Assembly (NCBI GenBank): GCA_963744145.1
Contig: CAVUSO010000001.1
Coordinates: 5,472,001 to 5,536,000, forward strand
Direction of reading: 5' to 3'
Length of the DNA stretch: 64,000 nucleotides
Source of the DNA: an uncultured cyanobacterium
GTDB taxonomy: Bacteria > Cyanobacteriota > Cyanobacteriia > Cyanobacteriales > CAWUOF01
The notes below the pieces were generated by a model, which saw only the letters and a list, made by a program, of their open reading frames with translations, did no database searches and was not told the origin of the DNA. A program made the position numbers and the translations under genes. Numbering within the stretch: the first letter of the stretch is position 1; the number at the start of each line of letters is the position of its first letter. Below, one piece after another: positions 28,561-48,851 of the stretch.

Positions 28561-29139
28561 CTAATTCCAGATTTTTTCTAAATTGATCACCAAACCCAGT
28601 AACACATTTTCACCGGATAAGGTAGATGGAGATTTGAGAATTTCTACTTCTTGACCAGGACGATAAATTTCTACTTCTTGTTTTTTTCGGTTGATCAACC
28701 ACCCCAAACGACAGCCATTTTCGCGGTATTCTTTCATTTTTTCTTGAGTATTTTTTAAGCTATCACTGGGAGAAAGCAGTTCAATCACAAAATCAGGACA
28801 TAAAGGAATAAATTTTTCTTTTTCTTCAATACTCAAACTTTCCCATCGACTTATTTCGATCCAAGATACATCTGGAGAACGATTTGCTCCATTAGGGAGA
28901 ATAAAACCCGTGGAAGAATCAAATACCTCCCCAAGATGATATTGCTCATTCCATAACTCTACTTGGACAATTAACTTAACATTTTTTCGACCACTTTCTC
29001 CCCCTGTAGGTGCCATAATAATTAATTCACCTTTAGCATTACGCTCAAATTTTAAATCAGAATTTTCTTGACAGAGTTGATAAAACTCTGCATTAGTTAG
29101 ATTGATTACAGAGTTGAGGTTTACAGTTATCGCATTCAT
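28561..29139 (-). CDS. Uma2 family putative endonuclease
   Basis: ERNAKGELIIMAPTG, RSPDVSW and PDFVIELLSPSD. Confidence 0.92.
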   Translation of the reverse strand: MNAITVNLNSVINLTNAEFYQLCQENSDLKFERNAKGELIIMAPTGGESGRKNVKLIVQVELWNEQYHLGEVFDSSTGFILPNGANRSPDVSWIEISRWESLSIEEKEKFIPLCPDFVIELLSPSDSLKNTQEKMKEYRENGCRLGWLINRKKQEVEIYRPGQEVEILKSPSTLSGENVLLGLVINLEKIWN

Positions 29140-34268: not shown

Positions 34269-35084
34269 TTAGATGGGCAAATTATTGGGATCGATACCCT
34301 GTGATTTCAAATAAGTTATTAGCTTTTCTTTTTCTTGACGTTCCTGTTCCTTTTCTTGACGTTCCTGTTCCGCACGTTGACGTTCCTGTTCCGCACGTTG
34401 ACGTTCCTGTTCCGCACGTTGACGTTCCTGTTCAATTTTTTCTACAGCCCAAGGTAACAAATTCCCAGCCCGATCCCACCATCGTAACCAATACCCTCTT
34501 CTTCCTTCTTTTATTCCTTTCCAAGTTCCTAAAAATAGTCCCATTACCTCCAACCAATGACGACCATTTTCATCAGGTTGTTTTAGCTCATAGCGCCCAT
34601 TTTCCAGTTGATAATATTCTAATAAACCTCCATCTGGGTCAAAAATTATGTAAAGGGGAACTTGCAATATTTGTTCGTAAAAAAACCATCTTCCCGGTGG
34701 ATAGGTGCGTTTCACTGAATATTCTCCACCTTCTTGATCTGATAAAAATTCCATGACTATCGCTGGTACTTCCCCTTCTAAATGGGGTGTATAGCTTTGA
34801 CGTTCTGCTAAAATCTCTTTTACTGAAGCGATATATACCCAATCTGGGGCTTTGAGTACCAATTGCCCGTTTAATGTGGCACATAGACCAAAGTTGGAAG
34901 CGATTAACATCTGTGGTTGAATCAACCCACTGATTTCTAAACTTTCCCGTAAAGCTCCAGCTAAAAGTGGTTGTCCTGTATTGTCCACTGGTTCATCCTC
35001 TAACTGAAAACCATCAGGTAAGGTTTCCCAAGAAATGACCAGTCCTGTGCTGGGTGATTTGGTTTCATTGAGTAGGGTTGCCAT
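34269..35084 (-). CDS. Uma2 family protein with a C-terminal EQERQRA coiled-coil repeat
   Basis: KAPDW, VMEFLS and WLRWWD; 21-bp tandem repeat at about 34336-34432. Confidence 0.88.
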   Translation of the reverse strand: MATLLNETKSPSTGLVISWETLPDGFQLEDEPVDNTGQPLLAGALRESLEISGLIQPQMLIASNFGLCATLNGQLVLKAPDWVYIASVKEILAERQSYTPHLEGEVPAIVMEFLSDQEGGEYSVKRTYPPGRWFFYEQILQVPLYIIFDPDGGLLEYYQLENGRYELKQPDENGRHWLEVMGLFLGTWKGIKEGRRGYWLRWWDRAGNLLPWAVEKIEQERQRAEQERQRAEQERQRAEQERQEKEQERQEKEKLITYLKSQGIDPNNLPI

Positions 35085-35130: not shown

Positions 35131-36714
35131 TAAGTAGTCGGACAAAAGTAATAGGTACTGTATTAACTTTTGTAAAACGTATGGGTCAAGCAATAAGCTG
35201 GACAAAGTCATCGAAAAATTAGTCCAATCTGGGGAAGATTGGCCAAAGAAGTGGCTGGACAATGGGAGCAAAAAATTAGACTTATTTTGGTAATTAAGGG
35301 GATAAGTGAGGTCGATTTTAGCTTCAAAAAAAACACCCTGATTGTGAAATAATTATAGAGCTAACTTAAAAGTTTGAAGAAAATGTCATCTCCTCCTTTG
35401 AGAATATTTTTAACATCTGCGGAAAATCAAACCTTATGGGAATTAAATAGAGCCGAGGGAGTTCCACTAAGAACAAGAGATTGGGCTGCTGACTTGAGAT
35501 TATCATCAATGGGATGGAAAGTGGAACAGATCGGCAAGTATCTGAACTGGTCAATTAAGACAGTGAGAGCCACAATACATCGTTGGGAAAAACAGGGATT
35601 AGCAGGATTATGGGATGCGCCTCGTCCGGGCAGGAAAAGAAAATGGAGTCAGGCAGATTTGGCAGAAATTGAAAAAAAACTAGAGACAGAGGAACGAGCT
35701 TATAATAGTCGTCAGTTAGTGAAATATCTAGCCCAGGAAAGGCAAGTAAAACTGAGCCAAAGACAGTTGCGTCGAATCCTCAAAAAAAACTATCGGTGGA
35801 AAAGAACGAGAACATCTCTAAAAGGAAAGCAAGACCAGGAAAAAAGAGCAACTAAAAGAAATGATTTAGAGATGTTGGAATTCGCGGCAGCCGCGGGTGA
35901 AATATGTTTAAAATATTTGGATGAATCAGGATTTAGCCTGTGGGCTGAACCTGTATATACCTGGGGGAAAATCGGCCAACAGAAACAGATCAAACAGCCT
36001 AAAAAGAAAGGGAAAAGATTAAATATATGTGGATTTTTGGCCGTGGGAGAAAGCTTTGAATATGGATTAAGTTTTAAGAGTTTTGACAGTAAGAATTATA
36101 TCAAATTAATGGATTGGCAAGCCGCGCAAGCGGAAACTAGATTGAAAGAAACGGGCAAAATAACTGTAATTGTCCAAGACCAATATTCCGTTCACGTAAG
36201 TAAATTGACGAAGAGCAACTATGATCAATGGGAAAAACAAGGATTATATATATTCCTATTATCCAGTTACTCTCCCGAATTAAATCTGATTGAAACGGAG
36301 TGGGAAAGAATCAAAGAAGATGAATTAGCTGGTCAAATGTTTGAGAATGAATATGAATTAACCATCGCGGTAAGAGCAGCAATCGAAGCTCGTCAAACTA
36401 GTAAGGGCTTAGAAGTAAAAAGATTTAGATTTGGTGGTCAGCCTAGCCAGGATGAACAAAAATCCTAATCGGGTTTATTCTAGTTCTAGTCAACCGGAAA
36501 AATTCCATTAATTGTTTAATGAGAGGCTGAGGCAAAACTGACCATATTTATAGTTAATAGAAAATCTGGAAATGCAGTTTTCTTACTCTCTAGTGAAACC
36601 TATTCAGTTGGACGGAGGGAATACTTTTATATGCTTTTCTCTGGTAAATTTGTGGGTCAAATTTACTCTTAAATAAAGTTAACATAGTTAACTTTATTTA
36701 TGTCCGACTACTTA
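35131..36714 (+). mobile_element. IS630-family insertion sequence, copy 1 (1,584 bp including both TA)
   Basis: Ends TA-AGTAGTCGGACA ... TGTCCGACTACT-TA; DDE transposase inside; near-identical copy at 44021-45604. Confidence 0.95.
35383..36468 (+). CDS. IS630 family transposase
   Basis: HTH N-terminus (GL..L.D.PR.GR); DDE residues in YLDESGF, VQDQYSVH and YSPELNLIE. Confidence 0.95.
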   Translation: MSSPPLRIFLTSAENQTLWELNRAEGVPLRTRDWAADLRLSSMGWKVEQIGKYLNWSIKTVRATIHRWEKQGLAGLWDAPRPGRKRKWSQADLAEIEKKLETEERAYNSRQLVKYLAQERQVKLSQRQLRRILKKNYRWKRTRTSLKGKQDQEKRATKRNDLEMLEFAAAAGEICLKYLDESGFSLWAEPVYTWGKIGQQKQIKQPKKKGKRLNICGFLAVGESFEYGLSFKSFDSKNYIKLMDWQAAQAETRLKETGKITVIVQDQYSVHVSKLTKSNYDQWEKQGLYIFLLSSYSPELNLIETEWERIKEDELAGQMFENEYELTIAVRAAIEARQTSKGLEVKRFRFGGQPSQDEQKS

Positions 36715-36760
36715 GGTTTTTGATAAAATTTTAAAGCATAAGCAATGGAAAGTAGTAACT

Positions 36761-38104
36761 ATGGATTTGCAAGGCTTTTTTAAAGCAATAAACCCAACTA
36801 AGACCCTGAAAGTTGAAAATGCTGAGGATCGAAAATATTATATTGACTTTTCCTCAGTGCGAGGTGGTCAGATTATTGAGGAACTTAAGGATCATATTAT
36901 CTTGTTTAGTCCGGATGAACCTACTTGTACTTTATTTACTGGTCATATTGGTTGTGGGAAGTCTACAGAATTATTTTGCTTAAAAGCTGAGTTGGAACAA
37001 GATGGTTTTCATGTTGTGTATTTTGAATCGAGTGAAGATTTGGAATTGACTGATGTGGATATTAGTGATATTTTACTCGCGATCGCACGTCGGATTAGTC
37101 AAAGTTTAGAGAATTTAGAAATTGCCGAACCTAAAAAGTTTAAAGAGTTACTACAAGGTGCTGTTAATGTTTTAAATTCCCAAGTTACGGGAGTTAAGTT
37201 TAAGTTTATGGGTAATGAATTGGGGGTAACTTCCGATCAAGATAAATTTACCCTGGCTTTGGGAATTGGTGAAATTACTACTAAAACAAAAAGTGATCCT
37301 AATCTTCGGGAAAAGCTTAATCAATATTTAGCACCCCAAAAAACTCAACTATTAGATGCTATTAATCGAGAATTGATCGAACCAGCGATCGCGAAGTTAA
37401 AACAATTAGGTAAAAAAGGATTAGTGGTAATTGTCGATAATCTAGATCGTTTAGATAATCGTCAAAAACCCTGGGGGCGATCGCAACCAGAATATCTATT
37501 TGTAGATCAAGGAGAATATTTAACTAAACTGCATTGTCATCTTGTTTATACCATGCCGTTAGCCCTAAAATTCTCCAATGATTATGGTAATCTTACCCAA
37601 AGATTTCTTCAAGAACCGAAAGTGTTACCGATGGTGACGGTAAAATTAAAAGATGGTGGTGAATGTGAAGAAGGGATTATGTTACTCAAAAAAATGGTGA
37701 TGGCACGAGTATTTCCCGATCGCCAGGAGTCGGAACGTTTTGAAGCTATTACTGAAGTTTTTGAGGATATAGAAAGCTTAAATCGTCTTTGTTATATGAG
37801 TGGGGGTCATGTTCGAGATTTGTTAAGATTATTGACTGATTGGCTGACAAAAGGAAAAAAATTTCCCCTCTCTCGGAAAACTTTAGAAGAATTAATTCGT
37901 CAGCGTTATAATAATATGATTATGCCAATTTCTGATCAAGAGTGGGATTTGTTGCGACAAGTTAAGCAACGTCAGCGAGTTACTGATGATGATGGATATC
38001 AAAAATTGATTCGGAGTCGGTTTGTATTTGAATATCATTATGATGAGGAGATTTGGTTTGATCTTAATCCTATTTTAGCTGAAGCTAAGGAATTGCAGCT
38101 ATGA
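36761..38104 (+). CDS. P-loop ATPase (AAA+/STAND-like), partner of the downstream giant protein
   Basis: Walker A GHIGCGKS, Walker B VVIVDNLD, SGGHVRDLLRL; stop overlaps the next ATG (ATGA at 38101-38104). Confidence 0.88.
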   Translation: MDLQGFFKAINPTKTLKVENAEDRKYYIDFSSVRGGQIIEELKDHIILFSPDEPTCTLFTGHIGCGKSTELFCLKAELEQDGFHVVYFESSEDLELTDVDISDILLAIARRISQSLENLEIAEPKKFKELLQGAVNVLNSQVTGVKFKFMGNELGVTSDQDKFTLALGIGEITTKTKSDPNLREKLNQYLAPQKTQLLDAINRELIEPAIAKLKQLGKKGLVVIVDNLDRLDNRQKPWGRSQPEYLFVDQGEYLTKLHCHLVYTMPLALKFSNDYGNLTQRFLQEPKVLPMVTVKLKDGGECEEGIMLLKKMVMARVFPDRQESERFEAITEVFEDIESLNRLCYMSGGHVRDLLRLLTDWLTKGKKFPLSRKTLEELIRQRYNNMIMPISDQEWDLLRQVKQRQRVTDDDGYQKLIRSRFVFEYHYDEEIWFDLNPILAEAKELQL

Positions 38105-41100
38105 CTGAAGATATCTCTAGCGAAAATCAGAATGTTTTAGAGGATATATCCTGGACAATTACTGTTTCTCAGGGTGAGTTTAGGTTACTCTTAATTCGTT
38201 GTAATTATCTGAGTTTACGTGATGAGTTATCTCAGCAATTACAACAAGTTTGTCCGCTGGAAATTCAGGTTCTAAATCTCAAAGCATCTGAACAAACTCT
38301 CTATAATAGGATTCAGCTAGAATTAGGGACAACCCAGCCAAATGCACTGATGGTTTTTGGCTTAGAAATGGTTGATAATTTGGAGCATTTGTTGTCTGCT
38401 GCTAATCAAGTCAGGGAAGAATTTCAGAAAAATTTTCATTTTCCCTTATTATTATGGGTTAATGATGAAGTCTTTATCCAATTAGTTAGGGTTGCACCGG
38501 ATTTTGAAAGTTGGGCAAATACTACTGAGTTGCTGATTAGTCAGGAGCAATTAGGAAATTTGCTGAAAGACAGAGCTACAGAATGGTTTAACGATCGGTT
38601 AATTATAACTCAGAGTGAAAGTTTAGAGTTACAAGCGGAATTGACCTCGGCTTATCGGGATTTACAGAGATATAATGAAGTTTTAGATCAGGAATTAGTA
38701 GCAAATTTAGAGTCTTTGCTTGGTAGTGTTAAATTTATTAATAATAAAATAGATGAAGCTTTAGCACATTATCAAAAAGCTGCGGATATTTGGCGGGAAA
38801 TTAATCAATTAGATCGATTAGGAATAGTGCTGAGAGAGATGACACTTTGCTATTATCAAAAAGCTCTTCCTGATCGTGATATAGAAGATGCTCATTGGCA
38901 GCTAACTAAGAATTATCTTCTGCAATCTATTGAAATTTTACAAGCCGCTAATCGTTTAGATTTAATTGCTAATTGCTTGTTAAATTTTGGGATAATTTTA
39001 CGGCGATTAAAAGATTGGCAATTATTGGAAAGTTTGGCAAGGCAATCTTTGCAGTTGCACCAAGATAAAACTAAATCTCTGCAATTAGCACAGGATTATG
39101 GTTTTTTAGCTGAAGTAGCTTTAGCTCGTCAAGATTGGTTAGAAGCAAAAAAATTAGCTGAAAATACTATTACGTTATTAAACTCAATTACAGATGAGAA
39201 TAGTTCTGATTTAATTCGATCTTATTTGGTTAGTCAATGTTACTTTATTTTAGCACAGGTACAACAAAATTTAGGTGAAACTGCAATAGCTATTGCAAAA
39301 TTGGAAAAAGCTAAAAAAATCAGTAGTCCTGAATATGATACTCAATTTTATCTCGAAATCATCAATTATTTACAAAAACTTTATTTTGAACAACACCAAT
39401 ATCAATTAGCTTTTGAAATTAAATTAGAACGGCAATCGATTGAGCAACAATATGGATTGCGAGCGTTTATTGGTGCAGGAAGACTTCAAGCTCAAAAGCA
39501 AGCAAAATTAACTATTACTCAAGATAAAAGTGTTGAAAATGTAGCTTCGGAAATAGTTGCTTCTGGGCGGGATTTGGATGTAAATAAGTTAATTCAGCGG
39601 ATTGGTGAACCTAGTTATAAGCTAATTGTAATTCATGGACAATCCGGTGTGGGGAAGAGTTCTCTGGTAAATGGTGGTTTGATTCCAGCATTGAAGCGGA
39701 AAAGTATTGGTATTCAGGATGTTTTATCTATAGCAATGCGGGTTTATACTGATTGGATTAGAGAATTAGGACGGTTATTGGGAGAAGCTTTATTAGCAAG
39801 AAAAATTGTTGATGAGAAAATTTTGAGTTTGACTTCTCGAGATATATCTGAAGAGGATATTTTAACCATAATTATTGAACAGTTACAGAAAAGTGAGTCA
39901 TATAATCTGCGACCAGTATTGATTTTTGACCAGTTTGAAGAGTTCTTTTTTGTCTATTCTAATCCTGTTGACAGAATCGCATTTTCCCAATTTTTGGGAA
40001 ATTGTCTCAAGATTGGTTATGTCAAGGTAATTTTATCCCTTCGCGAAGATTATTTGCACTATTTGCTGGAATGGGAAAATCAGGATAGTATGAATAGCAT
40101 TGGTAATGATATTCTTTGCAAAAATATTCGCTATCATTTAGGAAATTTTTCACCTGATGCAGCTACAACAATTATTCGGAATTTAACGGAGAGAGCAAAT
40201 TTTAAGTTAGATGAAGTATTAATTAAGGAATTGGTAAAGGATTTAGCCGGAGAATTAGGTGAAGTGCGCCCAATTGAATTGCAAATAGTGGGAGCGCAAC
40301 TGCAAACAGAAAATATTACTACTTTGGCTCAATATCAAAATTGTGGTGAAAATGCAACGGAAGAATTAGTGAAACGCTATTTAGCAGAAGTAGTAAATGA
40401 CTGCGGTAAGGAAAATGAGCAAATTGCTGAGTTGGTACTATTTTTATTAACAGATGAAAAAATAAATCGACCTCTAAAAACTCGCACTGAATTAGATAGA
40501 GATGTGCAAGCATTGGCAACAAATTTAAGTTTAGATATTAATGGATTAGATTTAGTATTAAATATTTTTGTTGGTTCTGGGTTGGTTTTACTTTTACCGG
40601 AAAAGCCAGAAGATCGCTATCAGTTAGTGCATGATTATTTAGCAGCATTTATTCGTCAGCAAAAACCGAAGTTAAATGAGATAATTGCAGAACTAGAAAA
40701 GGAAAAAGAGAAAAATCGAATTGCCCAGGAAAAACTGCAACAATCTGAAGAAACAAAAAAAATCTTGGAAACAGCGAATAAAACTGCTAAACAACGGATT
40801 AAAATCGGTTCTGCTTTCTTAGGAATATCATTATTAGTGGCAGTAGGAACGGGAATATATGCTACTCAAAACCTTAGAGAAACAAAGGAAATTGGAAGAT
40901 TAGAACTAGAAGGGGTGAGTATTTTGAGACAATTTGAATCTGGGCAATCCGACTCTGACCAAATGGAAACATTGGTGTCAGCAATGCGGGCTGGACAAGA
41001 TTTGAAATCCCTAGTGAAAAATCGTCCTCTGAAAGAATATCCTATCGTTAGTCCGCTTTTAGCTTTAGAGACGATTCTAGATAATATTCGGGAAAAAAGT

Positions 41101-43956
41101 GAACTGAAAGGTGATCAGATTTCTGTCAATAGTAACAATTTTAGTCCTCAATGCGATCGCATTGTCACCACTTCAGATAACAAAACTGCCCGAGTCTGGG
41201 ATTTATCGGGGAAATTGCTCGCCGAACTCAAAGGTCATCAGATTTCTGTCAATAGTAACAATTTTAGTTCTCAATGCGATCGCATTGTCACTACTTCAGA
41301 CGACAAAACTGCCCGAGTCTGGGATTTATCGGGGAAATTACTCGCCGAACTTAAAGGTCATCATGGTCGGGTCTATAGTGCCAATTTTAGTCCTCAAGGC
41401 GATCGCATTGTCACTACTTCAGATGACAAAACTGCCCGAGTCTGGGATTTATCGGGAAAATTGCTGGTCCAACTCAAAGGTCATCATGGTCGGGTCTATA
41501 GTGCCAATTTTAGTCCTCAAGGCGATCACATTGTCACTACTACTTCAGATGACAAAACTGCCCAAGTCTGGGATTTATCGGGAAAATTGCTGGCCGAACT
41601 CAAAGGTCATCATGGCCGGGTCAATAGTGCCAATTTTAGTCCTCAAGGCGATCGCATTGTCACTACTTCAGATGACAAAACTGCCCGAGTCTGGGATTTA
41701 TCGGGGAAATTGCTGGCCGAACTCAAAGGTCATCAGAGTTCTTTCAATAGTGCTAATTTTAGTCCTCAAGGCGATCGTATTGTCACTACTTCAGATGACA
41801 AAACTGCCCGAGTTTGGGATTTATCGGGGAAATTGCTCGCTGAACTCAAAGGTCATCAGGATTATATCAATAGTGCCAATTTTAGTCCTCAAGGCGATCG
41901 CATTGTCACTACTTCAGATGACAAAACTGCCCGAGTCTGGGATTTATCGGGGAAATTGCTGGCTGAACTCAAAGGTCATCAGGATTGGGTCAGAAGTGCC
42001 AATTTTAGTCCTCAAAGTGATCGCATTGTCACTACTTCAGATGACAAAACTGCCCGAGTCTGGGATTTATCAGAGAAATTGCTGGCCGAACTCAAAGGTC
42101 ATCAGAGTTCTTTCAATAGTGCTAATTTTAGTCCTCAAGGCGATCGCATTGTCACTACCGCTTTAAATGACACTTTAAATGACAAAACTGCCCGAGTCTG
42201 GGATTTATCGGGGAAATTGCTGGCTGAACTCAAAGGTCATCAGGATTGGGTCAGAAGTGCCAATTTTAGTCCTCAAGGTGATCGCATTGTCACTACTGCG
42301 TTCAATGACAAAACTGCCCGAGTTTGGGATTTATCGGGGAAATTGCTGGCTGAACTCAAAGGTCATCAGGATTGGGTCAGTAGTGCCAATTTTAGTCCTC
42401 AAGGTGATCGCATTGTCACTACTGCGTTCAATGACAAAACTGCCCGAGTTTGGGATTTATCGGGGAAATTGCTCGCCGAACTCAAAAGTCCTCAGAATGG
42501 GGTCAGTAGTGCCAATTTTAGTCCTCAAGGTGATCGCATTGTCACTACCGCTTTAAATGACAAAATTGCCCGAGTCTGGGATTTATCGGGGAAATTACTC
42601 GCCGAACTCAAAGGTCATCAAAATTCGGTTTTAAGTGCCAATTTTAGTCCTCAAGGTAATCGCATTGTCACTACCGCTTTAAATGACAAAACTGCCCGAG
42701 TCTGGGATTTATCAGGGAAATTGCTCGCTGAACTCAAAGGCCCTCAGTATGGTCCTCAGCATTCGGTCATTAAAGCCAATTTTAGTCCTCAAGGTGATCA
42801 CATTGTCACCATTTCTTTTGACAAAACTGCCCGAGTCTGGGATTTATCGGGGAAATTGCTCGCTGAACTTAAAGGTCATCACGATTATGTTAATAGTGCC
42901 AATTTTAGTCCTCAAGGCGATCGTATTTTCACCACTTTACATGACACTGCCCAAGTCTGGGATTTATCAGGTAGACAATTAGCAGAATTCAAACAAGATT
43001 ACGATCATAGCAAATTCGGTGACGGTAAAGCCAACTTTAGTCCAGATGGCAATCTGATCATCTTCCTACTTGGAAACACAGCAAAAATTTGGCAAATAAA
43101 AAGTGTTGGTAACTTAGATTTACTATTAGAACGGGGTTGCAAATGGTTAAATTATTATCTGATCAATCATCCCAAAGAATTAGAGAAATTAGAAATATGT
43201 CAAAACGACTCTAACAAATTTGAGGCCGCACCATTTATGTTTGAGGAAGGAGAAATTGAAGCTAGAAGTGGTAATATTGATAATGCAGTTTCTAATTTCA
43301 GCATAGCGTTAAAGTGGAATCCCAAATTAAATTTTGATCCCAATATAAAAGCACAGCAATTAGCAAAAGCTAATAATCTAGTTAAGCAAGGAGAAGAGTT
43401 AGCACAAACTGGTGATATCAAAAATATTAACCCTGCAATTAGTCTTTTTCAACAAGCCGTAAAACTTGACCCCAATTTAGATTTTCAGCCAGAGCAAAAA
43501 GCTAAGGAAATAGTAGCTGGTAATCTAGTTTATAAAGGGGAAGAGTTAGCACAAACTGGTAACATAAAAGACGCAGTTACTATTTTTAAACAAGCATTAA
43601 AACTGGACCCTAGTTTAGATTTTCAACCAGAGCAAAAAGCTAAGGAAATGGTAGCGGGCAATCTAGTTTATAAAGCGGCAGAATTAGCAAAAACTGGTAA
43701 TATAAAAGACGCAGTTACTATTTTTAAACAAGCATTAAAACTGGACCCTAGTTTAGATTTTCAACCAGAGCAAAAAGCTAATGAGGTACTAGCTAATGAT
43801 CTAGTTAATAAAGGGGAGAAATTAGCAAAAACTGGTAATATAAAAGACGCAGTTACTATTTTTAAACAAGCAATAAAACTTGACCCTAATTTAGATTTTC
43901 AGCCAGAGCAAAAAGCTAAGGAAATAGCAGAGTCTGTTAAGAATAGCGAAATGTAA
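38101..43956 (+). CDS. 1,951-aa protein: N-terminal domain, TPR-like region, STAND (nSTAND1-like) NTPase, TM helix, about 16 WD40 repeats, TPR-like repeats
   Basis: HGQSGVGKSS, LIFDQFEE, SLREDY and YQLVHDYL; TM IGSAFLGISLLVAVGTGIYA; GH...WD repeats. Confidence 0.9.
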   Translation: MTEDISSENQNVLEDISWTITVSQGEFRLLLIRCNYLSLRDELSQQLQQVCPLEIQVLNLKASEQTLYNRIQLELGTTQPNALMVFGLEMVDNLEHLLSAANQVREEFQKNFHFPLLLWVNDEVFIQLVRVAPDFESWANTTELLISQEQLGNLLKDRATEWFNDRLIITQSESLELQAELTSAYRDLQRYNEVLDQELVANLESLLGSVKFINNKIDEALAHYQKAADIWREINQLDRLGIVLREMTLCYYQKALPDRDIEDAHWQLTKNYLLQSIEILQAANRLDLIANCLLNFGIILRRLKDWQLLESLARQSLQLHQDKTKSLQLAQDYGFLAEVALARQDWLEAKKLAENTITLLNSITDENSSDLIRSYLVSQCYFILAQVQQNLGETAIAIAKLEKAKKISSPEYDTQFYLEIINYLQKLYFEQHQYQLAFEIKLERQSIEQQYGLRAFIGAGRLQAQKQAKLTITQDKSVENVASEIVASGRDLDVNKLIQRIGEPSYKLIVIHGQSGVGKSSLVNGGLIPALKRKSIGIQDVLSIAMRVYTDWIRELGRLLGEALLARKIVDEKILSLTSRDISEEDILTIIIEQLQKSESYNLRPVLIFDQFEEFFFVYSNPVDRIAFSQFLGNCLKIGYVKVILSLREDYLHYLLEWENQDSMNSIGNDILCKNIRYHLGNFSPDAATTIIRNLTERANFKLDEVLIKELVKDLAGELGEVRPIELQIVGAQLQTENITTLAQYQNCGENATEELVKRYLAEVVNDCGKENEQIAELVLFLLTDEKINRPLKTRTELDRDVQALATNLSLDINGLDLVLNIFVGSGLVLLLPEKPEDRYQLVHDYLAAFIRQQKPKLNEIIAELEKEKEKNRIAQEKLQQSEETKKILETANKTAKQRIKIGSAFLGISLLVAVGTGIYATQNLRETKEIGRLELEGVSILRQFESGQSDSDQMETLVSAMRAGQDLKSLVKNRPLKEYPIVSPLLALETILDNIREKSELKGDQISVNSNNFSPQCDRIVTTSDNKTARVWDLSGKLLAELKGHQISVNSNNFSSQCDRIVTTSDDKTARVWDLSGKLLAELKGHHGRVYSANFSPQGDRIVTTSDDKTARVWDLSGKLLVQLKGHHGRVYSANFSPQGDHIVTTTSDDKTAQVWDLSGKLLAELKGHHGRVNSANFSPQGDRIVTTSDDKTARVWDLSGKLLAELKGHQSSFNSANFSPQGDRIVTTSDDKTARVWDLSGKLLAELKGHQDYINSANFSPQGDRIVTTSDDKTARVWDLSGKLLAELKGHQDWVRSANFSPQSDRIVTTSDDKTARVWDLSEKLLAELKGHQSSFNSANFSPQGDRIVTTALNDTLNDKTARVWDLSGKLLAELKGHQDWVRSANFSPQGDRIVTTAFNDKTARVWDLSGKLLAELKGHQDWVSSANFSPQGDRIVTTAFNDKTARVWDLSGKLLAELKSPQNGVSSANFSPQGDRIVTTALNDKIARVWDLSGKLLAELKGHQNSVLSANFSPQGNRIVTTALNDKTARVWDLSGKLLAELKGPQYGPQHSVIKANFSPQGDHIVTISFDKTARVWDLSGKLLAELKGHHDYVNSANFSPQGDRIFTTLHDTAQVWDLSGRQLAEFKQDYDHSKFGDGKANFSPDGNLIIFLLGNTAKIWQIKSVGNLDLLLERGCKWLNYYLINHPKELEKLEICQNDSNKFEAAPFMFEEGEIEARSGNIDNAVSNFSIALKWNPKLNFDPNIKAQQLAKANNLVKQGEELAQTGDIKNINPAISLFQQAVKLDPNLDFQPEQKAKEIVAGNLVYKGEELAQTGNIKDAVTIFKQALKLDPSLDFQPEQKAKEMVAGNLVYKAAELAKTGNIKDAVTIFKQALKLDPSLDFQPEQKANEVLANDLVNKGEKLAKTGNIKDAVTIFKQAIKLDPNLDFQPEQKAKEIAESVKNSEM
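41100..42990 (+). repeat. 15 near-identical ~123-bp WD40-coding tandem repeats
   Basis: Recurrent aaaactgcccgagtctgggatttatcggggaaattgct...ctcaaaggtcat unit. Confidence 0.95.
43370..43930 (+). repeat. Four ~138-bp TPR-like coding repeats
   Basis: LVxK.E.LA.TG.IK...F.QA.KLDP.LDFQPEQKA occurs four times. Confidence 0.9.
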
Positions 43957-44020: not shown

Positions 44021-45604
44021 TAAGTAGTCGGACAAAAGTAATAGGTACTGTATTAACTTTTGTAAAACGTATGGGTCAAGCAATAAGCTGGACAAAGTCA
44101 TCGAAAAATTAGTCCAATCTGGGGAAGATTGGCCAAAGAAGTGGCTGGACAATGGGAGCAAAAAATTAGACTTATTTTGGTAATTAAGGGGATAAGTGAG
44201 GTCGATTTTAGCTTCAAAAAAAACACCCTGATTGTGAAATAATTATAGAGCTAACTTAAAAGTTTGAAGAAAATGTCATCTCCTCCTTTGAGAATATTTT
44301 TAACATCTGCGGAAAATCAAACCTTATGGGAATTAAATAGAGCCGAGGGAGTTCCACTAAGAACAAGAGATCGGGCTGCGACCTTGAGATTATCATCAAT
44401 GGGATGGAAAGTGGAACAGATCGGCAAGTATCTGAACTGGTCAATTAAGACAGTGAGAGCCACAATACATCGTTGGGAAAAACAGGGATTAGCAGGATTA
44501 TGGGATGCGCCTCGTCCGGGCAGGAAAAGAAAATGGAGTCAGGCAGATTTGGCAGAAATTGAAAAAAAACTAGAGACAGAGGAACGAGCTTATAATAGTC
44601 GTCAGTTAGTGAAATATCTAGCCCAGGAAAGGCAAGTAAAACTGAGCCAAAGACAGTTGCGTCGAATCCTCAAAAAAAACTATCGGTGGAAAAGAACGAG
44701 AACATCTCTAAAAGGAAAGCAAGACCAGGAAAAAAGAGCAACTAAAAGAAATGATTTAGAGATGTTGGAATTCGCGGCAGCCGCGGGTGAAATATGTTTA
44801 AAATATTTGGATGAATCAGGATTTAGCCTGTGGGCTGAACCTGTATATACCTGGGGGAAAATCGGCCAACAGAAACAGATCAAACAGCCTAAAAAGAAAG
44901 GGAAAAGATTAAATATATGTGGATTTTTGGCCGTGGGAGAAAGCTTTGAATATGGATTAAGTTTTAAGAGTTTTGACAGTAAGAATTATATCAAATTAAT
45001 GGATTGGCAAGCCGCGCAAGCGGAAACTAGATTGAAAGAAACGGGCAAAATAACTGTAATTGTCCAAGACCAATATTCCGTTCACGTAAGTAAATTGACG
45101 AAGAGCAACTATGATCAATGGGAAAAACAAGGATTATATATATTCCTATTATCCAGTTACTCTCCCGAATTAAATCTGATTGAAACGGAGTGGGAAAGAA
45201 TCAAAGAAGATGAATTAGCTGGTCAAATGTTTGAGAATGAATATGAATTAACCATCGCGGTAAGAGCAGCAATCGAAGCTCGTCAAACTAGTAAGGGCTT
45301 AGAAGTAAAAAGATTTAGATTTGGTGGTCAGCCTAGCCAGGATGAACAAAAATCCTAATCGGGTTTATTCTAGTTCTAGTCAACCGGAAAAATTCCATTA
45401 ATTGTTTAATGAGAGGCTGAGGCAAAACTGACCATATTTATAGTTAATAGAAAATCTGGAAATGCAGTTTTCTTACTCTCTAGTGAAACCTATTCAGTTG
45501 GACGGAGGGAATACTTTTATATGCTTTTCTCTGGTAAATTTGTGGGTCAAATTTACTCTTAAATAAAGTTAACATAGTTAACTTTATTTATGTCCGACTA
45601 CTTA
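44021..45604 (+). mobile_element. IS630-family insertion sequence, copy 2
   Basis: Same ends and length as 35131-36714; offset 8,890 bp. Confidence 0.95.
44273..45358 (+). CDS. IS630 family transposase
   Basis: Matches copy 1 except DRAATL versus DWAADL. Confidence 0.95.
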   Translation: MSSPPLRIFLTSAENQTLWELNRAEGVPLRTRDRAATLRLSSMGWKVEQIGKYLNWSIKTVRATIHRWEKQGLAGLWDAPRPGRKRKWSQADLAEIEKKLETEERAYNSRQLVKYLAQERQVKLSQRQLRRILKKNYRWKRTRTSLKGKQDQEKRATKRNDLEMLEFAAAAGEICLKYLDESGFSLWAEPVYTWGKIGQQKQIKQPKKKGKRLNICGFLAVGESFEYGLSFKSFDSKNYIKLMDWQAAQAETRLKETGKITVIVQDQYSVHVSKLTKSNYDQWEKQGLYIFLLSSYSPELNLIETEWERIKEDELAGQMFENEYELTIAVRAAIEARQTSKGLEVKRFRFGGQPSQDEQKS

Positions 45605-45637: not shown

Positions 45638-45973
45638 ATGTCTGAACCAGATTTAATCAATAAACATTCTCTTCATGAAGCGATCGCCGATATATGGTGT
45701 GAGATTCAACAAACACCAGCAGAACACTGGCCCAATTTACTTCAGATGATACGGTTATTTCGTGAAAGCGTGACCAAGACACCTGCACCATCAGATGCTT
45801 GGAAAAAAGCTATGGATGAAATTAACAATCCTGATCCAATAGTAGAAGCAGTGCGACAGAAAGCTTTAGGCAAATTATCCAGAAAATGGGAAGAAGAAGG
45901 AGATGAGGAGGAGCAGACTGAAACTGCTAAAATTCTCTCTAAAGCATTAGATGAAAATCCCATATCTATCTAA
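45638..45973 (+). CDS. Putative antitoxin-like protein, copy 1 (no adjacent toxin)
   Basis: Highly similar to 46810-47160, which is coupled to a PIN gene; acidic C-terminal part. Confidence 0.65.
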   Translation: MSEPDLINKHSLHEAIADIWCEIQQTPAEHWPNLLQMIRLFRESVTKTPAPSDAWKKAMDEINNPDPIVEAVRQKALGKLSRKWEEEGDEEEQTETAKILSKALDENPISI

Positions 45974-46047
45974 AATATTCGATGAGAACAATTATAATAT
46001 AATATTATAGTAAGGATTTTTACTGGTGCTCATTCACTTTCACTATT

Positions 46048-46461
46048 ATGCCTGCTAAGGATATTTACCATGATGCGGTTAAGAATGCTTTAAGTAAGGA
46101 TGGTTGGACAATTACTGCCGATCCTTATTTTATCATATACAAAAAATTAAAACTCATTGCCGATCTTGGTGCTGAACGTCCATTTTTAGCAGAGAAACAG
46201 ATGGAGAAAATTGTTGTTGAGGTTAAGAGTTTTCTTAATCCATCTTTTATTTATGATCTTGAACAAGCTCTCGGTCAGTATATTCTCTATCGTAATTTTC
46301 TCAAAAGAACTGCACCAGAGAGACAACTCTATTTAGCAATGAGTCAGAGGATTCATAACATTTATTTTGATGAAACAATCCAAATTGTTGTTGAGGAAAA
46401 TCAGCTTAAATTAATTATTGTAGATCCAGATAAGGAGGTCATCACAAAATGGATAAATTAA
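46048..46461 (+). CDS. xisH: XisH family protein
   Basis: [35 protein letters not shown] and ALGQY..Y. Confidence 0.93.
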
Positions 46462-46790
46462 ACCATTATCGTTCATTGATTCAGAAAATTCTCACCGAGT
46501 ATGATCAACTTTGTTCCCAAGTTGCGATTCCTGATGTAGAAATGCTTTTGGCTTTTGATGAACAAAGAGATCAATATTTATGGTTTCAAGTTGGATGGAC
46601 TCCAACCGAAAGAATTAAAGGAATTTCAGTTCACATTCGGATTAAAAATGAGAAGATTTACATTGAGGAAGATTGGACAGAAGAAGGGATGGCAAATGAG
46701 TTATTAAGATTAGGTATTCCTCCCGAAGATATAGTGTTAGCATTTCAGCCTCCCGAGGTGAGAAAGTTTACTGAGTTCGCTATAAAATAA
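46449..46790 (+). CDS. xisI: XisI family protein
   Basis: [22 protein letters not shown]...[12 protein letters not shown]. Confidence 0.93.
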
Positions 46791-46809
46791 CCCAAAATAG
46801 GTAATAATT

Positions 46810-47160
46810 ATGTCTGAATCTGATTTAATAAATAAACATTCTCTCAACGAAGCGATCGCAGAATTCCTGCGTGAGATTCAACAAACACCAGAAGAATATT
46901 GGCCCAATTTATTGCAGATGATACGGCTATTTCGTGCCAGTGTGACCAAAGCCCCTGCACCATCAGATGCTTGGAAAAAAGCTATGGATGAAATTAACAA
47001 TCCCGATCCAATAGTAGAAGCAGCGCGACAGAAAGCTTTAGGCGAATTATTCAGAAAATGGACAGAGGAGGGAGATGAAGAGGAGCAAAAAGAAACTGGG
47101 GATTATCTCCGTCGGGTACTTGATGAAGACCGTCTTTCTAATCGACCTTTGTTTTCATGA
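46810..47160 (+). CDS. Putative antitoxin, copy 2
   Basis: Stop overlaps the PIN gene ATG (ATGA); ends in LDEDRLSNRPLFS. Confidence 0.7.
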   Translation: MSESDLINKHSLNEAIAEFLREIQQTPEEYWPNLLQMIRLFRASVTKAPAPSDAWKKAMDEINNPDPIVEAARQKALGELFRKWTEEGDEEEQKETGDYLRRVLDEDRLSNRPLFS

Positions 47161-47609
47161 GCAGATTTGTATTTCTAGATTCTGGCCCACTGGGAATGGC
47201 GACAAACCCAAGAAACTCACCTATGTATTTAGAATGCCAACTTTGGCTATATTCCTTACCCCAGGGAGGCTATACAGCAGTTCTACCTGAAATCGCAGAC
47301 TATGAGGTGCGGCGTGAATTACTCCGAGCTAGTAAGGTAGCAGGTATTATACGTCTTGACCAACTCAAGTCTGCGATTAGATATATTCCTATTACAACAG
47401 AAACGATGCTCAAAGCTGCTGAGTTATGGGCTATGGCGCGACGTTCGGGAAGACCAACAGCCGACCCTCATGCACTTGATGGGGATATAATTTTAGCAGC
47501 GCAAGCAATATTGTTAGCAAATGAAGGAAATGAGGTGATAGTTGCTACAACAAATGTAGGGCATTTGTCACAGTTTGTTGATGCGCGTGAATGGTGGTTG
47601 ATTCAGTAA
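47157..47609 (+). CDS. PIN-domain (VapC-like) ribonuclease toxin
   Basis: FLDSGPLG, PEIADYEVRREL, LDGDIILAAQA and ATTNVGHL. Confidence 0.88.
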   Translation: MSRFVFLDSGPLGMATNPRNSPMYLECQLWLYSLPQGGYTAVLPEIADYEVRRELLRASKVAGIIRLDQLKSAIRYIPITTETMLKAAELWAMARRSGRPTADPHALDGDIILAAQAILLANEGNEVIVATTNVGHLSQFVDAREWWLIQ

Positions 47610-48200: not shown

Positions 48201-48851
48201 TCAAGAAATGGGATTTTTATTGATCTTTACCCAAGCTCGAAAAGCTTTCATTGTTTTATTTCTCCCCTCAATTTTGCTGCGTTCTAAATACTCAGAAATC
48301 ATATTGATTAGGGGAAATCCTGGAAAATGAGGACTTTCATGCTGTTGAACATATTGTTCCGATTTTAATACATTAATTTCTAATTTATTTCCATCAAAAC
48401 GCCATAATTCTCTCACACCTAAAGCTTCATAATTATTAAATCTTGTCCGAGAAGTTAGATCAATTTCAATCGCTAAATCTGGTGGTGGATCTATGGTTAA
48501 ATCAAGGCGCGATTTCCCTCGAACTGTTGCTTCGTTTTCGATATAAAAACAATCATCAGCTTCTATTCCCTGATTCATGAGTTCGCTTTTAAAAGTAGTC
48601 GATCCCAAACTCCTAAATTCAATATCTAGTTCTTCCAGCATAACTTTGATAAAATCGCCAATCATGATTTTATCATCTTCTTGTTCTGGTAGAGGCACCA
48701 TGATTTCTAAGACTCCCTGACTGTAATTAATTCGACTTCCTCGTTTTTCACTAAATTCTTTTAGTAGCTGTTCATACATTTTCCAGCTAACGTTATTGAG
48801 CAGGAGTTGCTGACCAGGAGAGATCATTATTTGTTTAAGTTGTACTTGCAT
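48201..48851 (-). CDS. Uma2 family putative endonuclease
   Basis: VSW..YE.LL, GSTTF, PPDLAIEID and Y..LGV.ELW. Confidence 0.9.
   Translation of the reverse strand: MQVQLKQIMISPGQQLLLNNVSWKMYEQLLKEFSEKRGSRINYSQGVLEIMVPLPEQEDDKIMIGDFIKVMLEELDIEFRSLGSTTFKSELMNQGIEADDCFYIENEATVRGKSRLDLTIDPPPDLAIEIDLTSRTRFNNYEALGVRELWRFDGNKLEINVLKSEQYVQQHESPHFPGFPLINMISEYLERSKIEGRNKTMKAFRAWVKINKNPIS

What the first reader, a model, noticed from the sequence alone, without database searches (positions are those of the whole stretch)
41100..43100. WD40 array homogenised at DNA level but hypervariable and shuffled at two patches
Seen: 15 units share an almost invariant scaffold. Patch 1, after GH, varies: QISVN x2, HGRVY x2, HGRVN, QSSFN x2, QDYIN, QDWVR x2, QDWVS, QNGVS, QNSVL, QHSVI, HDYVN. 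Patch 2 varies among TSDD, ALND, AFND, ISFD and TLHD, with in-frame micro-duplications (TTT, LNDTLND, GPQYGPQ). The patches reassort: QSSFN and QDWVR each occur with two different patch-2 types. Many units carry a HIP1 site between the patches. Known: fungal HET-E/NWD receptors show the same pattern of concerted evolution with variable top-face residues. Inference: a recombination-driven specificity-diversifying sensor.
Basis: partly seen in the sequence, partly recalled or inferred. Interest (0 to 1): 0.8.

Follow-up and report, generated by a model that had tools for sequence, protein, structure and literature searches.

The report
Repetitive WD40 sensor with variable patches
A cyanobacterial STAND-ATPase receptor carries sixteen WD40 blades, fifteen of them nearly identical, that differ mainly at the ligand-contact positions; this pattern is already known from fungal HET-E receptors and other bacterial highly repetitive propellers, so it is a clear example of a known kind, not a new one.

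Summary
Window 41086..42969 encodes 15 in-frame WD40 units (mean 88% nt, 82% aa identity), followed by a degenerate 16th. They lie in a 1951-aa protein: N-terminal TPR, nSTAND1 NTPase, one hydrophobic helix, WD40 array, TPR-like tail. Amino-acid variation sits in the d-a loop/start of strand a (after GH) and in the b-c turn. The same columns (12, 13, 15, 31, 33 of a 41-column unit) are the most diverse in 7 other arrays from genomes and in 51 repetitive arrays from database homologues. They correspond to the four positively selected codons of fungal HET-D/E. Nonsynonymous diversity at these columns is 2.3 times the synonymous diversity of the scaffold. Two chimeric units (u09, u10) support shuffling, but a spatial recombination test was not significant. 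HIP1 occurs in 6 of 15 units and in none of 7 other repetitive arrays, so it is not the driver. No close orthologue exists. A near-allelic pair elsewhere in the family (99.4% identical upstream) differs by three units and one patch swap. The pattern is in print (Hu 2017, Dyrka 2020, Pereira and Lupas 2022), so this is a new member of a known kind. New here: domain-swap evidence places the propellers outside the cytoplasm.

The parts
36761..38104 (+). Partner gene: 447-aa P-loop ATPase, whose stop overlaps the start of the next gene (ATGA)
   Evidence: ORF. Weak KAP_NTPase/AAA_16/AAA_22 Pfam matches. A homologue lies directly upstream in 11 of 11 homologue loci that have 1.5-kb flanks and beside all 3 paralogues in this genome. 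Weak PADLOC match PDC-S20, E 1.7e-8.
38101..43956 (+). 1951-aa nSTAND1 NTPase gene that holds the array
   Evidence: ORF; Pfam.
38101..39540 (+). N-terminal region (residues 1-480): about 145-aa domain of unknown function followed by TPR repeats
   Evidence: TPR_12 E 2.5e-13 at residues 292-358, nothing before about residue 200. Residues 1-150 match stand-alone 155-229-aa frames in other genomes and unnamed cyanobacterial clusters of 139-162 aa. No stand-alone copy in this genome.
39565..40692 (+). nSTAND1 NTPase module (residues 489-864), Walker A GQSGVGKS
   Evidence: PF20703, E 1.4e-28, 101 bits against a cut-off of 27.1; the motif is read in the translation.
40804..40860 (+). Hydrophobic helix (residues 902-920), predicted single membrane span between NTPase and propellers
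   Evidence: Kyte-Doolittle 19-mer mean 1.82; 5 K/R on the N side against 3 on the C side. A helix at the same place is present in dCache (2 of 2) and CHASE2 (3 of 3) variants of the family and absent in cyclase variants (0 of 5).
41086..42072 (+). WD40 units u01-u08, predicted first 8-bladed propeller; patch 2 uniformly TSD[DN]
   Evidence: Unit table. AF2 model residues 73-401 align to 8-bladed propellers: ODA16 Z 29.1, rmsd 2.0, 326 aligned; Tako8 Z 27.0.
42073..43113 (+). WD40 units u09-u16, predicted second propeller; patch 2 A[LF]ND, ISFD, TLHD; u16 degenerate
   Evidence: DSSP of the model shows four strands per unit; pLDDT is lower in u16.
41153..42147 (+). Six HIP1 octamers (GCGATCGC) starting at 41153, 41276, 41399, 41648, 41894 and 42140, each encoding part of G/C-D-R in the a-b loop between the patches
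   Evidence: 6 in the array, 0 in the other 3987 nt of the gene; genome density 1.01 per kb.
43114..43200 (+). Helical cap after the propellers with a conserved Cys pair (GCxWL...C)
   Evidence: Helices at 748-776 of the model; C756 nearly invariant and C776 invariant in alignment A1.
43368..43930 (+). Second internal repeat: about 3.5 units of 138 bp (46 aa), TPR-like, 85-88% identical
   Evidence: TRF, 88% matches; families D3/D5; TPR_2 E 2.6e-24.
35131..36715 (+). IS630-type insertion sequence, upstream copy
   Evidence: DDE_3/HTH_32 transposase; inverted ends; 10 near-full copies in the genome.
44021..45604 (+). IS630-type insertion sequence, downstream copy in the same orientation
   Evidence: 99.8% identical to the upstream copy.

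Best explanation
The region is the ligand-binding part of a STAND-type (nSTAND1) signalling NTPase of a HIP1-rich cyanobacterium. Sixteen WD40 blades are predicted to fold into two 8-bladed propellers. Fifteen blades stay about 88% identical at DNA level through turnover of whole units within the array: duplication, deletion, unequal crossing-over or conversion. Amino-acid diversity is kept or promoted at four to five positions per blade. These lie in the d-a loop/first strand and in the b-c turn, on the top face of the propeller where WD40 proteins bind partners. New binding surfaces therefore arise by point change at these positions, by loop-length changes (the 3- and 12-nt duplications), and by recombining half-units and whole units. 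Ligand binding would then switch on NTP-dependent oligomerisation of the nSTAND1 module, acting with the conserved upstream ATPase. Shown here: the architecture, the concentration of variation, its agreement across many independent arrays, the chimeric units, and repeat-number polymorphism in a near-allelic pair of the family. Inferred: selection for diversity, ongoing recombination in this particular array, the sensor role, the downstream output, and the extracytoplasmic location of the propellers.
For: Architecture: WD40 E 4.5e-127 in 13 stretches; nSTAND1 101 bits. Fold: AF2 mean pLDDT 82.6. Best PDB match by Foldseek is 2ymu, 'highly repetitive propeller' (E 1.1e-36). Sequence match to 2ymu has E 9.9e-139. 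First propeller = u01-u08. Location of patches: in the DSSP of the model, patch 1 lies in the loop after strand d and at the start of strand a, patch 2 at the b-c turn, and HIP1 in the a-b loop on the other face. Concentration of variation: a hot set defined from 7 other arrays has pN 0.367 in this array, reached by 1 of 20000 random 5-column sets. The ratio dN(hot)/dS(scaffold) is 2.3 here, 2.9 in the paralogue at C1:3399350, 26.8 in L022 and 2.2 in L018, while the scaffold ratio is 0.09-0.43. Minimal events are 17 nonsynonymous/3 synonymous in hot columns against 24/18 elsewhere, Fisher p=0.044. Generality: 51 of 71 WD-bearing homologues among the top 120 hits have mean unit identity of 0.70 or more. 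In these, column 13 is among the five most diverse in 47 of 51, column 31 in 46, column 15 in 42, column 12 in 27 and column 33 in 23. Shuffling: u09 equals u06 over codons 1-27, including a private synonymous GCT, and equals u12/u13 from codon 29 on. u10 equals u08 over codons 1-26, including CTG GCT and AGA, then differs. 45 of 120 pairs of biallelic informative sites show all four combinations. Turnover in the family: P0046 and P0048 are 99.4% identical over 1106 aa before the array but have 12 and 15 units and one patch-1 swap. Four pairs 90-93% identical before the array share 21-46% of hot-column residues against 77-80% of other array columns. Positions equal those under positive selection in fungal HET-D/E (passages read).
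Against: dN/dS computed within the patch codons alone is only 1.36-1.48 (patch 1, hot set) and 0.39 for patch 2. The excess of pN(hot) over pS(scaffold) in this array is borderline: bootstrap fraction at or below zero is 0.04. The Fisher test is p=0.044 on few events. The PHI-like test of spatial clustering of incompatibilities is not significant (p=0.14), and incompatibility within halves (19/56) does not differ from that between halves (26/64). Recurrent mutation therefore cannot be excluded, and the chimeric pairs were picked after inspection. Patch 2 in this array is largely a two-state difference between the two predicted propellers. Mapping to the top face rests on strand topology and homology, not on coordinates, which the tools do not return. 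No orthologue closer than 56-58% was found, so the polymorphism of this gene is unknown. No effector domain, ligand or phenotype is known, and there is no PADLOC match for residues 1-995.
Confidence: 0.62

Rival explanations
1. Recent amplification only. The array arose a short time ago from one blade, as proposed for WRAP-type propellers. It has since drifted, with differences accumulating fastest in the least constrained surface loops. There is no ongoing recombination and no selection for diversity.
For: Pereira and Lupas 2022 describe cyanobacterial STAND-linked propellers as recently amplified (passages read). dN/dS inside the hot codons is near 1. The recombination test is not significant. 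Loops are the least constrained part of a WD40 blade (general knowledge, recalled).
Against: pN at hot columns exceeds the scaffold pS in the four youngest arrays, by 2.2- to 26.8-fold; neutral drift should not exceed it. 51 of 71 homologues are in the repetitive state, which needs a steady process and not a coincidence of recent births. Chimeric units carry shared synonymous markers. A 3-unit difference separates alleles that are 99.4% identical upstream. Scaffold pS of 0.19 shows that the units of this array are not very young.
Confidence: 0.2
2. HIP1-driven shuffling. The HIP1 octamer between the patches is the recombination site that reassorts patch 1 and patch 2.
For: HIP1 lies between the patches in 6 of 15 units at 3.2 per kb, against 1.01 per kb in the genome. 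The u06/u09 breakpoint interval (codon 27 position 3 to codon 29-33) contains it.
Against: The six sites are copies of one repeated unit and are not independent. There are 0 HIP1 sites in 7 of 7 other repetitive arrays that show the same variable columns and reassortment. u10, one of the two chimeric units, has no perfect HIP1. Any crossover that reassorts the patches must fall in the invariant 14 codons between them, so co-location carries no information.
Confidence: 0.04
3. Structural or scaffolding propeller without a variable recognition role. The repeats are kept similar for stability, and the variable positions are simply tolerated.
For: Hu 2017 report that highly repetitive WD40 proteins are predicted to be more stable (abstract and passages). 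No ligand or phenotype is known.
Against: The variable positions are the known interaction hot spots and are the same in 51 arrays. Hot columns are about 21-23% identical between proteins that are 90-93% identical upstream. The C-terminal module of the family is exchanged for classical sensor domains, dCache and CHASE2.
Confidence: 0.1
4. Assembly artefact: unit number or order is wrong because of collapse or mis-joining of repeats.
For: Tandem 123-bp units are hard for short reads. No laid contig spans the array.
Against: All 15 units are distinct in sequence, and the frame stays open for 1951 aa. The contig is 7.63 Mb. In run X1, 25 of 27 laid pieces are at least 99% identical, and two listed pieces bridge unit boundaries (u04/u05 and u15/u16) with more than 31 nt on each side. 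However, X1 may be the source sample.
Confidence: 0.03

Closest known systems
WRAP domain of Npun_R6612 (PDB 2ymu) and other 'highly repetitive' cyanobacterial WD40 propellers (Chaudhuri 2008 and Dunin-Horkawicz 2014, as cited in Pereira and Lupas 2022, PMC9218822)
   Same: C-terminal WD40 array of a cyanobacterial STAND ATPase with very similar blades, forming a double propeller. It is the best PDB match by sequence (E 9.9e-139) and by Foldseek. The gene is coupled to a second ATPase gene.
   Different: WRAP has 14 blades (7+7), 10 point differences and no synonymous changes (passage). Here there are 16 blades, predicted 8+8, scaffold pS is 0.19, and about 18% of residues differ. The partner here is a 447-aa P-loop ATPase without TIR or caspase. 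A hydrophobic helix precedes the array. The NTPase is nSTAND1.
Fungal HET-D/HET-E and the NWD family (Paoletti 2007, PMC1805685; Dyrka 2014, PMC4986451)
   Same: STAND NTPase plus highly similar WD40 repeats. Variation is focused on two pairs of codons flanking a conserved residue, in the d-a loop and the b-c turn. Repeat-number polymorphism and unit reshuffling occur, seen here in the family pair P0046/P0048.
   Different: The fungal proteins have a NACHT NTPase and a HET effector; here the NTPase is nSTAND1 and no HET domain is found. Fungal repeats are exchanged between paralogues; here the DNA repeat family is confined to this one gene. RIP does not exist in bacteria. The fungal proteins are cytosolic, whereas these propellers are probably extracytoplasmic.
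Highly-Repetitive (HR) WD40 class of Hu et al. 2017 (PMC5587647)
   Same: Internal identity is at least 0.7 and the protein is prokaryotic. The paper states that most sites are conserved while the predicted interaction hot-spot sites are diverse (passage).
   Different: The paper gives no analysis of shuffling, topology or this NTPase family in the passages read.
DGR-diversified nSTAND1/NACHT C-type-lectin sensors of multicellular bacteria (Dore 2024, PMC10907252)
   Same: An nSTAND1 NTPase with a diversified C-terminal sensor; some sensors are predicted to be periplasmic (passages).
   Different: Diversification there uses a reverse transcriptase and a template repeat. Here no reverse transcriptase was found among the ORFs scanned from 24.7 to 54.9 kb, and the only similar DNA in the genome is the array itself.
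Apaf-1
   Same: STAND NTPase followed by a double WD40 propeller that binds the activating ligand (Foldseek matches 3shf/3sfz; role as described in Kaur 2020).
   Different: Apaf-1 blades are divergent, the protein is cytosolic, and it carries a CARD effector.

Membership tests
WD40 repeat / beta-propeller | Pfam WD40 (PF00400) repeats above threshold, with four-stranded blades | tested here: met
   E 4.5e-127, 409.6 bits, 13 stretches. The DSSP of the AF2 model shows four strands per unit. 8-bladed propeller matches reach Z 27-29.
Highly-Repetitive WD40 (Hu 2017) / highly repetitive propeller (Pereira and Lupas 2022) | Internal repeat identity at least 0.7 (Hu) or median blade identity above 60% (Pereira and Lupas) | tested here: met
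   Mean pairwise unit identity is 0.82 aa and 0.88 nt over 15 units. The thresholds were read.
Highly-Repetitive WD40 (Hu 2017) | Diversity confined to the predicted top-face hot-spot sites | tested here: met
   Columns 12, 13, 15 and 30/31 carry the diversity. The face is assigned from strand topology and from homology with HET-E, not from coordinates.
nSTAND1 NTPase (PF20703; Kaur 2021) | Match to the nSTAND1 model above the gathering score, with a P-loop | tested here: met
   101.1 bits against a cut-off of 27.1, residues 489-864. GQSGVGKS is read.
Fungal HNWD/NWD (HET-D/E) family | N-terminal HET domain | tested here: not met
   The Pfam scan of residues 1-490 at E up to 0.1 lists only TPR families and chance-level hits.
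Fungal HNWD/NWD (HET-D/E) family | NACHT NTPase | tested here: inconclusive
   The best NTPase model is nSTAND1. Only 25 of 54 matching Pfam families were listed, so a weaker NACHT match cannot be excluded.
Fungal HNWD/NWD (HET-D/E) family | Concerted evolution of repeats between paralogous genes | tested here: not met
   blastn of a unit against the whole genome finds only this array plus a 72-86% remnant at C1:6735491-6735713. The paralogue at C1:3399350 has its own distinct repeat family.
Fungal HNWD/NWD (HET-D/E) family | Positive selection at the two codon pairs on the top face | tested here: inconclusive
   dN(hot)/dS(scaffold) is 2.3, with bootstrap fraction at or below zero of 0.04. 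dN/dS within the hot codons is 1.48. No likelihood codon model was available.
Fungal HNWD/NWD (HET-D/E) family | Repeat-number polymorphism between strains | not testable with these tools
   No orthologue above 58% identity was found, and the sequencing runs gave contigs only. Polymorphism was seen in another member pair of the family, P0046/P0048.
WRAP (Npun_R6612-like) | Blades without synonymous differences (very recent amplification), 14 blades, operon with a TIR-STAND gene | tested here: not met
   Scaffold pS is 0.19. There are 16 units. The upstream gene has no TIR match.
DGR target | Nearby reverse transcriptase and a template repeat | tested here: not met
   No reverse-transcriptase family was found among the ORFs scanned between 24.7 and 54.9 kb. 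No second copy of the repeat lies outside the array.
Known anti-phage STAND systems (Avs, bNACHT) in PADLOC | Match to a PADLOC model | tested here: inconclusive
   No match for residues 1-995. The partner ATPase weakly matches candidate PDC-S20 (E 1.7e-8) and mad8. The library dates from 2023.

The most novel reading that the evidence does not exclude
The diversified double propeller is not an intracellular NLR-type sensor. It is the extracytoplasmic half of a single-pass transmembrane STAND receptor. The hydrophobic helix sits 40-65 residues after the NTPase module. In sister proteins the same helix leads into dCache or CHASE2 domains, and it is missing when the C-terminus is a cytoplasmic cyclase. 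This helix would place the shuffling WD40 blades and the TPR tail in the periplasm, which in filamentous cyanobacteria is shared along the filament (recalled). There the array would act as a variable receptor for external or neighbour-derived ligands, such as phage parts or non-kin cells, and would signal inward to an NTPase switch.
Probability: 0.3. Interest if true: 0.7.

Novelty: new member of a known kind. Interest (0 to 1): 0.4.

Why it matters
The pattern shows that a regime first worked out for fungal allorecognition genes also operates in a large cyanobacterial nSTAND1 family. In that regime the repeats are kept alike so that they can be reshuffled, while the contact residues diversify. 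The same four to five positions per blade are involved here. This makes the family a tractable bacterial model for how repeat-based receptors generate specificity without a dedicated mutator. The idea was already raised for bacterial NLRs (Dyrka 2020), and the hot-spot diversity was noted by Hu 2017, so the value of this locus is as a well-resolved example. The probable extracytoplasmic placement of the propellers and the conserved partner ATPase are the parts that could add something new.

Tried and rejected
(1) Strain comparison of this gene failed. The genome search over 61 genomes and the protein search gave no relative above 56-58% identity before the array.

(2) Sequencing runs gave only Logan contigs.
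- X1 (soil metagenome, possibly the source sample) gives pieces at 99-100% identity, but none spans the array.
- X2 carries a relative about 94-98% identical in the flanks. One laid 127-nt unit piece has 11 differences, 9 of them in or beside the two patches. The piece was laid on its best-matching unit, so this is a hint only.
- Parts without cover say nothing.

(3) The PHI-like permutation test and the comparison of within-half against between-half incompatibility were both not significant.

(4) HIP1 as a recombination site is rejected.

(5) Exchange between paralogues is rejected.

(6) A DGR is rejected.

(7) Variable residues could not be mapped on coordinates, because the structure tool returns no coordinates. 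Strand topology was used instead.

(8) PADLOC and NCBIfam gave no family for the NTPase half.

(9) A PDB sequence search for the partner ATPase gave nothing below E 0.18.

(10) The search of earlier findings had nothing for this place.

(11) The conserved Cys pair in the cap was considered as support for a periplasmic location. It was dropped because variants without the hydrophobic helix (L013, L023) keep it.

(12) Literature searches found no paper treating this gene or the membrane topology of nSTAND1-WD40 proteins. Dunin-Horkawicz 2014 and Chaudhuri 2008 are not in the library and were seen only as citations.
Full report
**What is there.** The finding lies inside one long gene, 38101..43956 (+), which encodes 1951 aa.
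- Pfam gives WD40 (E 4.5e-127, 13 stretches) and the STAND clade nSTAND1 (PF20703, residues 489-864, 101 bits against a cut-off of 27.1).
- TPR repeats occupy the N-terminal 480 residues, and TPR-like repeats form the last 280.
- A 447-aa P-loop ATPase gene ends at 38104, four bases into this gene.
- A homologue of that ATPase lies directly upstream in 11 of 11 homologue loci fetched with flanks, and beside all three paralogues in this genome. The two genes therefore form a conserved module.
- The genome has 7.7 Mb, 39% G+C and 1.01 HIP1 sites per kb. XisH/XisI genes lie just downstream.

**The observation.** TRF reports a 123-bp period with 14.9 copies at 41101..42968.
- Cut in frame, the array has 15 units of 40-46 aa and a degenerate 16th unit (41086..43113).
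The two cases of one patch-1 type with two patch-2 types are real. The three in-frame duplications are visible in the codon alignment.
- Units are 80-93% identical to u07 at DNA level. Mean pairwise identity is 0.88 nt and 0.82 aa.
- HIP1 is perfect in 6 of 15 units.
- The long ORFs in other frames (41111..42166 and others) are by-products of the repeat.

**Where the variation sits.**
- An AlphaFold2 model of residues 925-1705, built on an alignment with nine homologues, has mean pLDDT 82.6.
- Its best PDB match by Foldseek is 2ymu, the 'highly repetitive propeller'. By sequence the match to 2ymu has E 9.9e-139.
- VIA-align places model residues 73-401 (units u01-u08) on 8-bladed propellers: ODA16 with Z 29.1, rmsd 2.0 and 326 aligned residues, and Tako8 with Z 27.0. 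The prediction is therefore two 8-bladed propellers.
- In the DSSP string of the model each unit reads as follows: strand d (LLAELK), loop (GH + 3 residues), strand a (VxSANF), loop (SPQGD, which holds the HIP1 site), strand b (RIVTTS), turn (DDK), strand c (TARVWD).
- Patch 1 is thus the d-a loop and the start of strand a. Patch 2 is the b-c turn. In WD40 propellers both lie on the top face (textbook knowledge, recalled; stated for HET-E in Paoletti 2007).
- I could not compute this from coordinates, because the tool does not return them.
- Patch 2 is uniform (TSD[DN]) in u01-u08 and changes to A[LF]ND in u09-u13. In this array it therefore mostly distinguishes the two predicted propellers.

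**Is the pattern more than chance, and is it general?**
- I fetched 20 homologue loci plus two intact paralogues from this genome. I aligned all units to a 41-column profile built from six units of this array.
- Eight arrays, including this one, have mean unit identity of at least 0.70.
- In the seven others the most diverse columns are 31, 13, 15, 12 and 33.
- Taking that set as given, its nonsynonymous diversity in the window array (0.367) was reached by 1 of 20000 random sets of five columns.
- The ratio dN(hot)/dS(scaffold) is 2.3 here, 2.9 in the paralogue at C1:3399350, 26.8 in L022 and 2.2 in L018, and 1.0-1.7 in the four older arrays. The scaffold dN/dS is 0.09-0.43.
- The excess is borderline in this array alone: bootstrap fraction at or below zero is 0.04, and the Fisher test on minimal events gives p=0.044.
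- dN/dS within the hot codons themselves is only about 1.4-1.5, and below 1 for patch 2.
- Among the 120 best database homologues, 72 have five or more units. Of the 71 other than this protein, 51 are repetitive at 0.70 or more.
- In those 51 arrays, column 13 is among the five most diverse in 47, column 31 in 46, column 15 in 42, column 12 in 27 and column 33 in 23.
- These 51 overlap in part with the genome loci, and the profile came from this array, so the two sets are not fully independent.
- Columns 13/15 flank the conserved V14 and columns 31/33 flank the conserved D32, 18 columns apart. Paoletti 2007 describe the same arrangement for codons 7/9 and 25/27 of the fungal HET-D/E repeats.

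**Shuffling.**
- u09 equals u06 over codons 1-27, with one difference in codon 1 and a shared private synonymous GCT. From codon 29 on it equals u12/u13.
- u10 equals u08 over codons 1-26, including CTG GCT and AGA, then carries the u11-type 3' half.
- 45 of 120 pairs of biallelic informative sites show all four combinations.
- The incompatibilities are not spatially clustered (PHI-like p=0.14; within halves 19/56, between halves 26/64). The chimeric pairs were chosen after inspection. Recombination in this array is therefore likely but not proven.
- Younger arrays show the same pattern more plainly. In the paralogue at C1:3399350 the states at columns 13, 15, 31 and 33 occur in almost all combinations. 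L022 contains repeated two-unit blocks.

**HIP1.**
- The six sites are copies of one unit, and the rest of the gene has none.
- None of the seven other repetitive arrays has a HIP1 site.
- The breakpoint intervals contain the site but extend over the invariant inter-patch segment.
- I reject a specific role for HIP1.

**Strain comparison.**
- No orthologue closer than 56-58% before the array exists in the collections searched.
- Public runs gave contigs only; see Tried and rejected.
- Within the family, P0046 and P0048 are 99.4% identical over 1106 aa before the array. They have 12 and 15 units, differing by three inserted units and one unit with a changed patch 1.
- Four pairs 90-93% identical upstream, with equal unit numbers, share 21-46% of hot-column residues but 77-80% of the other array columns.
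- Position-matched units need not be orthologous, so this measures change of the binding surface, whether by substitution or by shuffling.

**Topology.**
- A hydrophobic 19-mer (residues 902-920, mean hydropathy 1.82) lies between the NTPase and the array. It has five K/R before it and three after.
- Such a segment is present in 55 of 72 WD-bearing family members.
- In family members whose C-terminal module is dCache (2 of 2) or CHASE2 (3 of 3), a helix stands at the same place before the domain and further helices follow it. In members ending in a class-3 cyclase (0 of 5) there is none.
- dCache and CHASE2 are extracytoplasmic sensor domains (recalled). This suggests that the propellers of this protein face the periplasm.
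- 17 of 72 WD-bearing members lack the helix, so WD40 arrays of the family also occur in the cytoplasm.

**What is known.**
- Hu 2017 define highly repetitive WD40 proteins and state that their hot-spot sites are diverse (passages).
- Dyrka 2020 note 80-90% internal identity in bacterial NLR repeats and suggest a fungal-like regime (passage).
- Pereira and Lupas 2022 catalogue such propellers and interpret them as recent amplifications linked to innate immunity (passages).
- Kaur 2021 name nSTAND1 (passage).
- Dore 2024 describe nSTAND1 sensors diversified by DGRs (passages).
- The Nature 2026 survey notes WD40 sensors among bacterial STANDs (passages).
- The finding is therefore a new member of a known kind.

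**Verdict.** It is unsupported for HIP1 and unproven for positive selection and ongoing recombination in this one array.

Noticed in passing
window 35131..36715 and 44021..45604: Two copies of one IS630-type element, 99.8% identical and in the same orientation, bracket the ATPase + nSTAND1-WD40 gene pair like a composite transposon. The genome holds 10 near-full copies. I estimate, by my own arithmetic and not from a call, that about 0.1 pairs this close would be expected by chance.
   Followed up: partly
window 40804..40860 (residues 902-920): A hydrophobic helix lies between the NTPase and the propellers. Sister proteins have dCache or CHASE2 after the same helix, and cyclase variants lack it. 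This suggests that the WD40 array is extracytoplasmic.
   Followed up: partly
window 43368..43930: A second internally similar repeat in the same protein: about 3.5 units of 138 bp (46 aa, TPR-like), 85-88% identical. Its variable positions were not analysed.
   Followed up: no
genome C1:3399350-3405000 (outside the window): A paralogue of 1887 aa has 13 or more WD40 units at 95% nt identity. Only columns 13, 15, 31 and 33 vary, in nearly all combinations, and it has its own upstream ATPase (66% identical to the window's).
   Followed up: partly
genome C1:6730720-6735725 (outside the window): A decayed paralogous module. Only remnants of the ATPase remain. The NTPase gene is split into frames of 357, 299 and 445 aa with an in-frame TAA, and it ends after about 2.5 WD40 units. 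It is the only other DNA in the genome resembling the array (72-86%).
   Followed up: partly
window 38101..38550 (residues 1-150): The N-terminal domain has no Pfam family. In other cyanobacterial genomes it also occurs as stand-alone 155-229-aa frames, but not in this genome. It may be an adaptor of the effector-associated-domain type.
   Followed up: partly
window 45638..47609: Downstream cluster: XisH and XisI genes, flanked by two similar 111/116-aa ORFs of unknown family, and a 150-aa ORF without a Pfam match.
   Followed up: no
window 28561..29139, 34269..35084, 48201..48851: Three Uma2-family (putative restriction endonuclease-like) genes lie within 20 kb around the module.
   Followed up: no
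window 42463..42588 (u12), 42715..42849 (u14), 41086..41208 (u01): Three units have lost the His of the GH dipeptide (SP, GP and GD). This His is part of the structural hydrogen-bond tetrad of WD40 blades (recalled).
   Followed up: no
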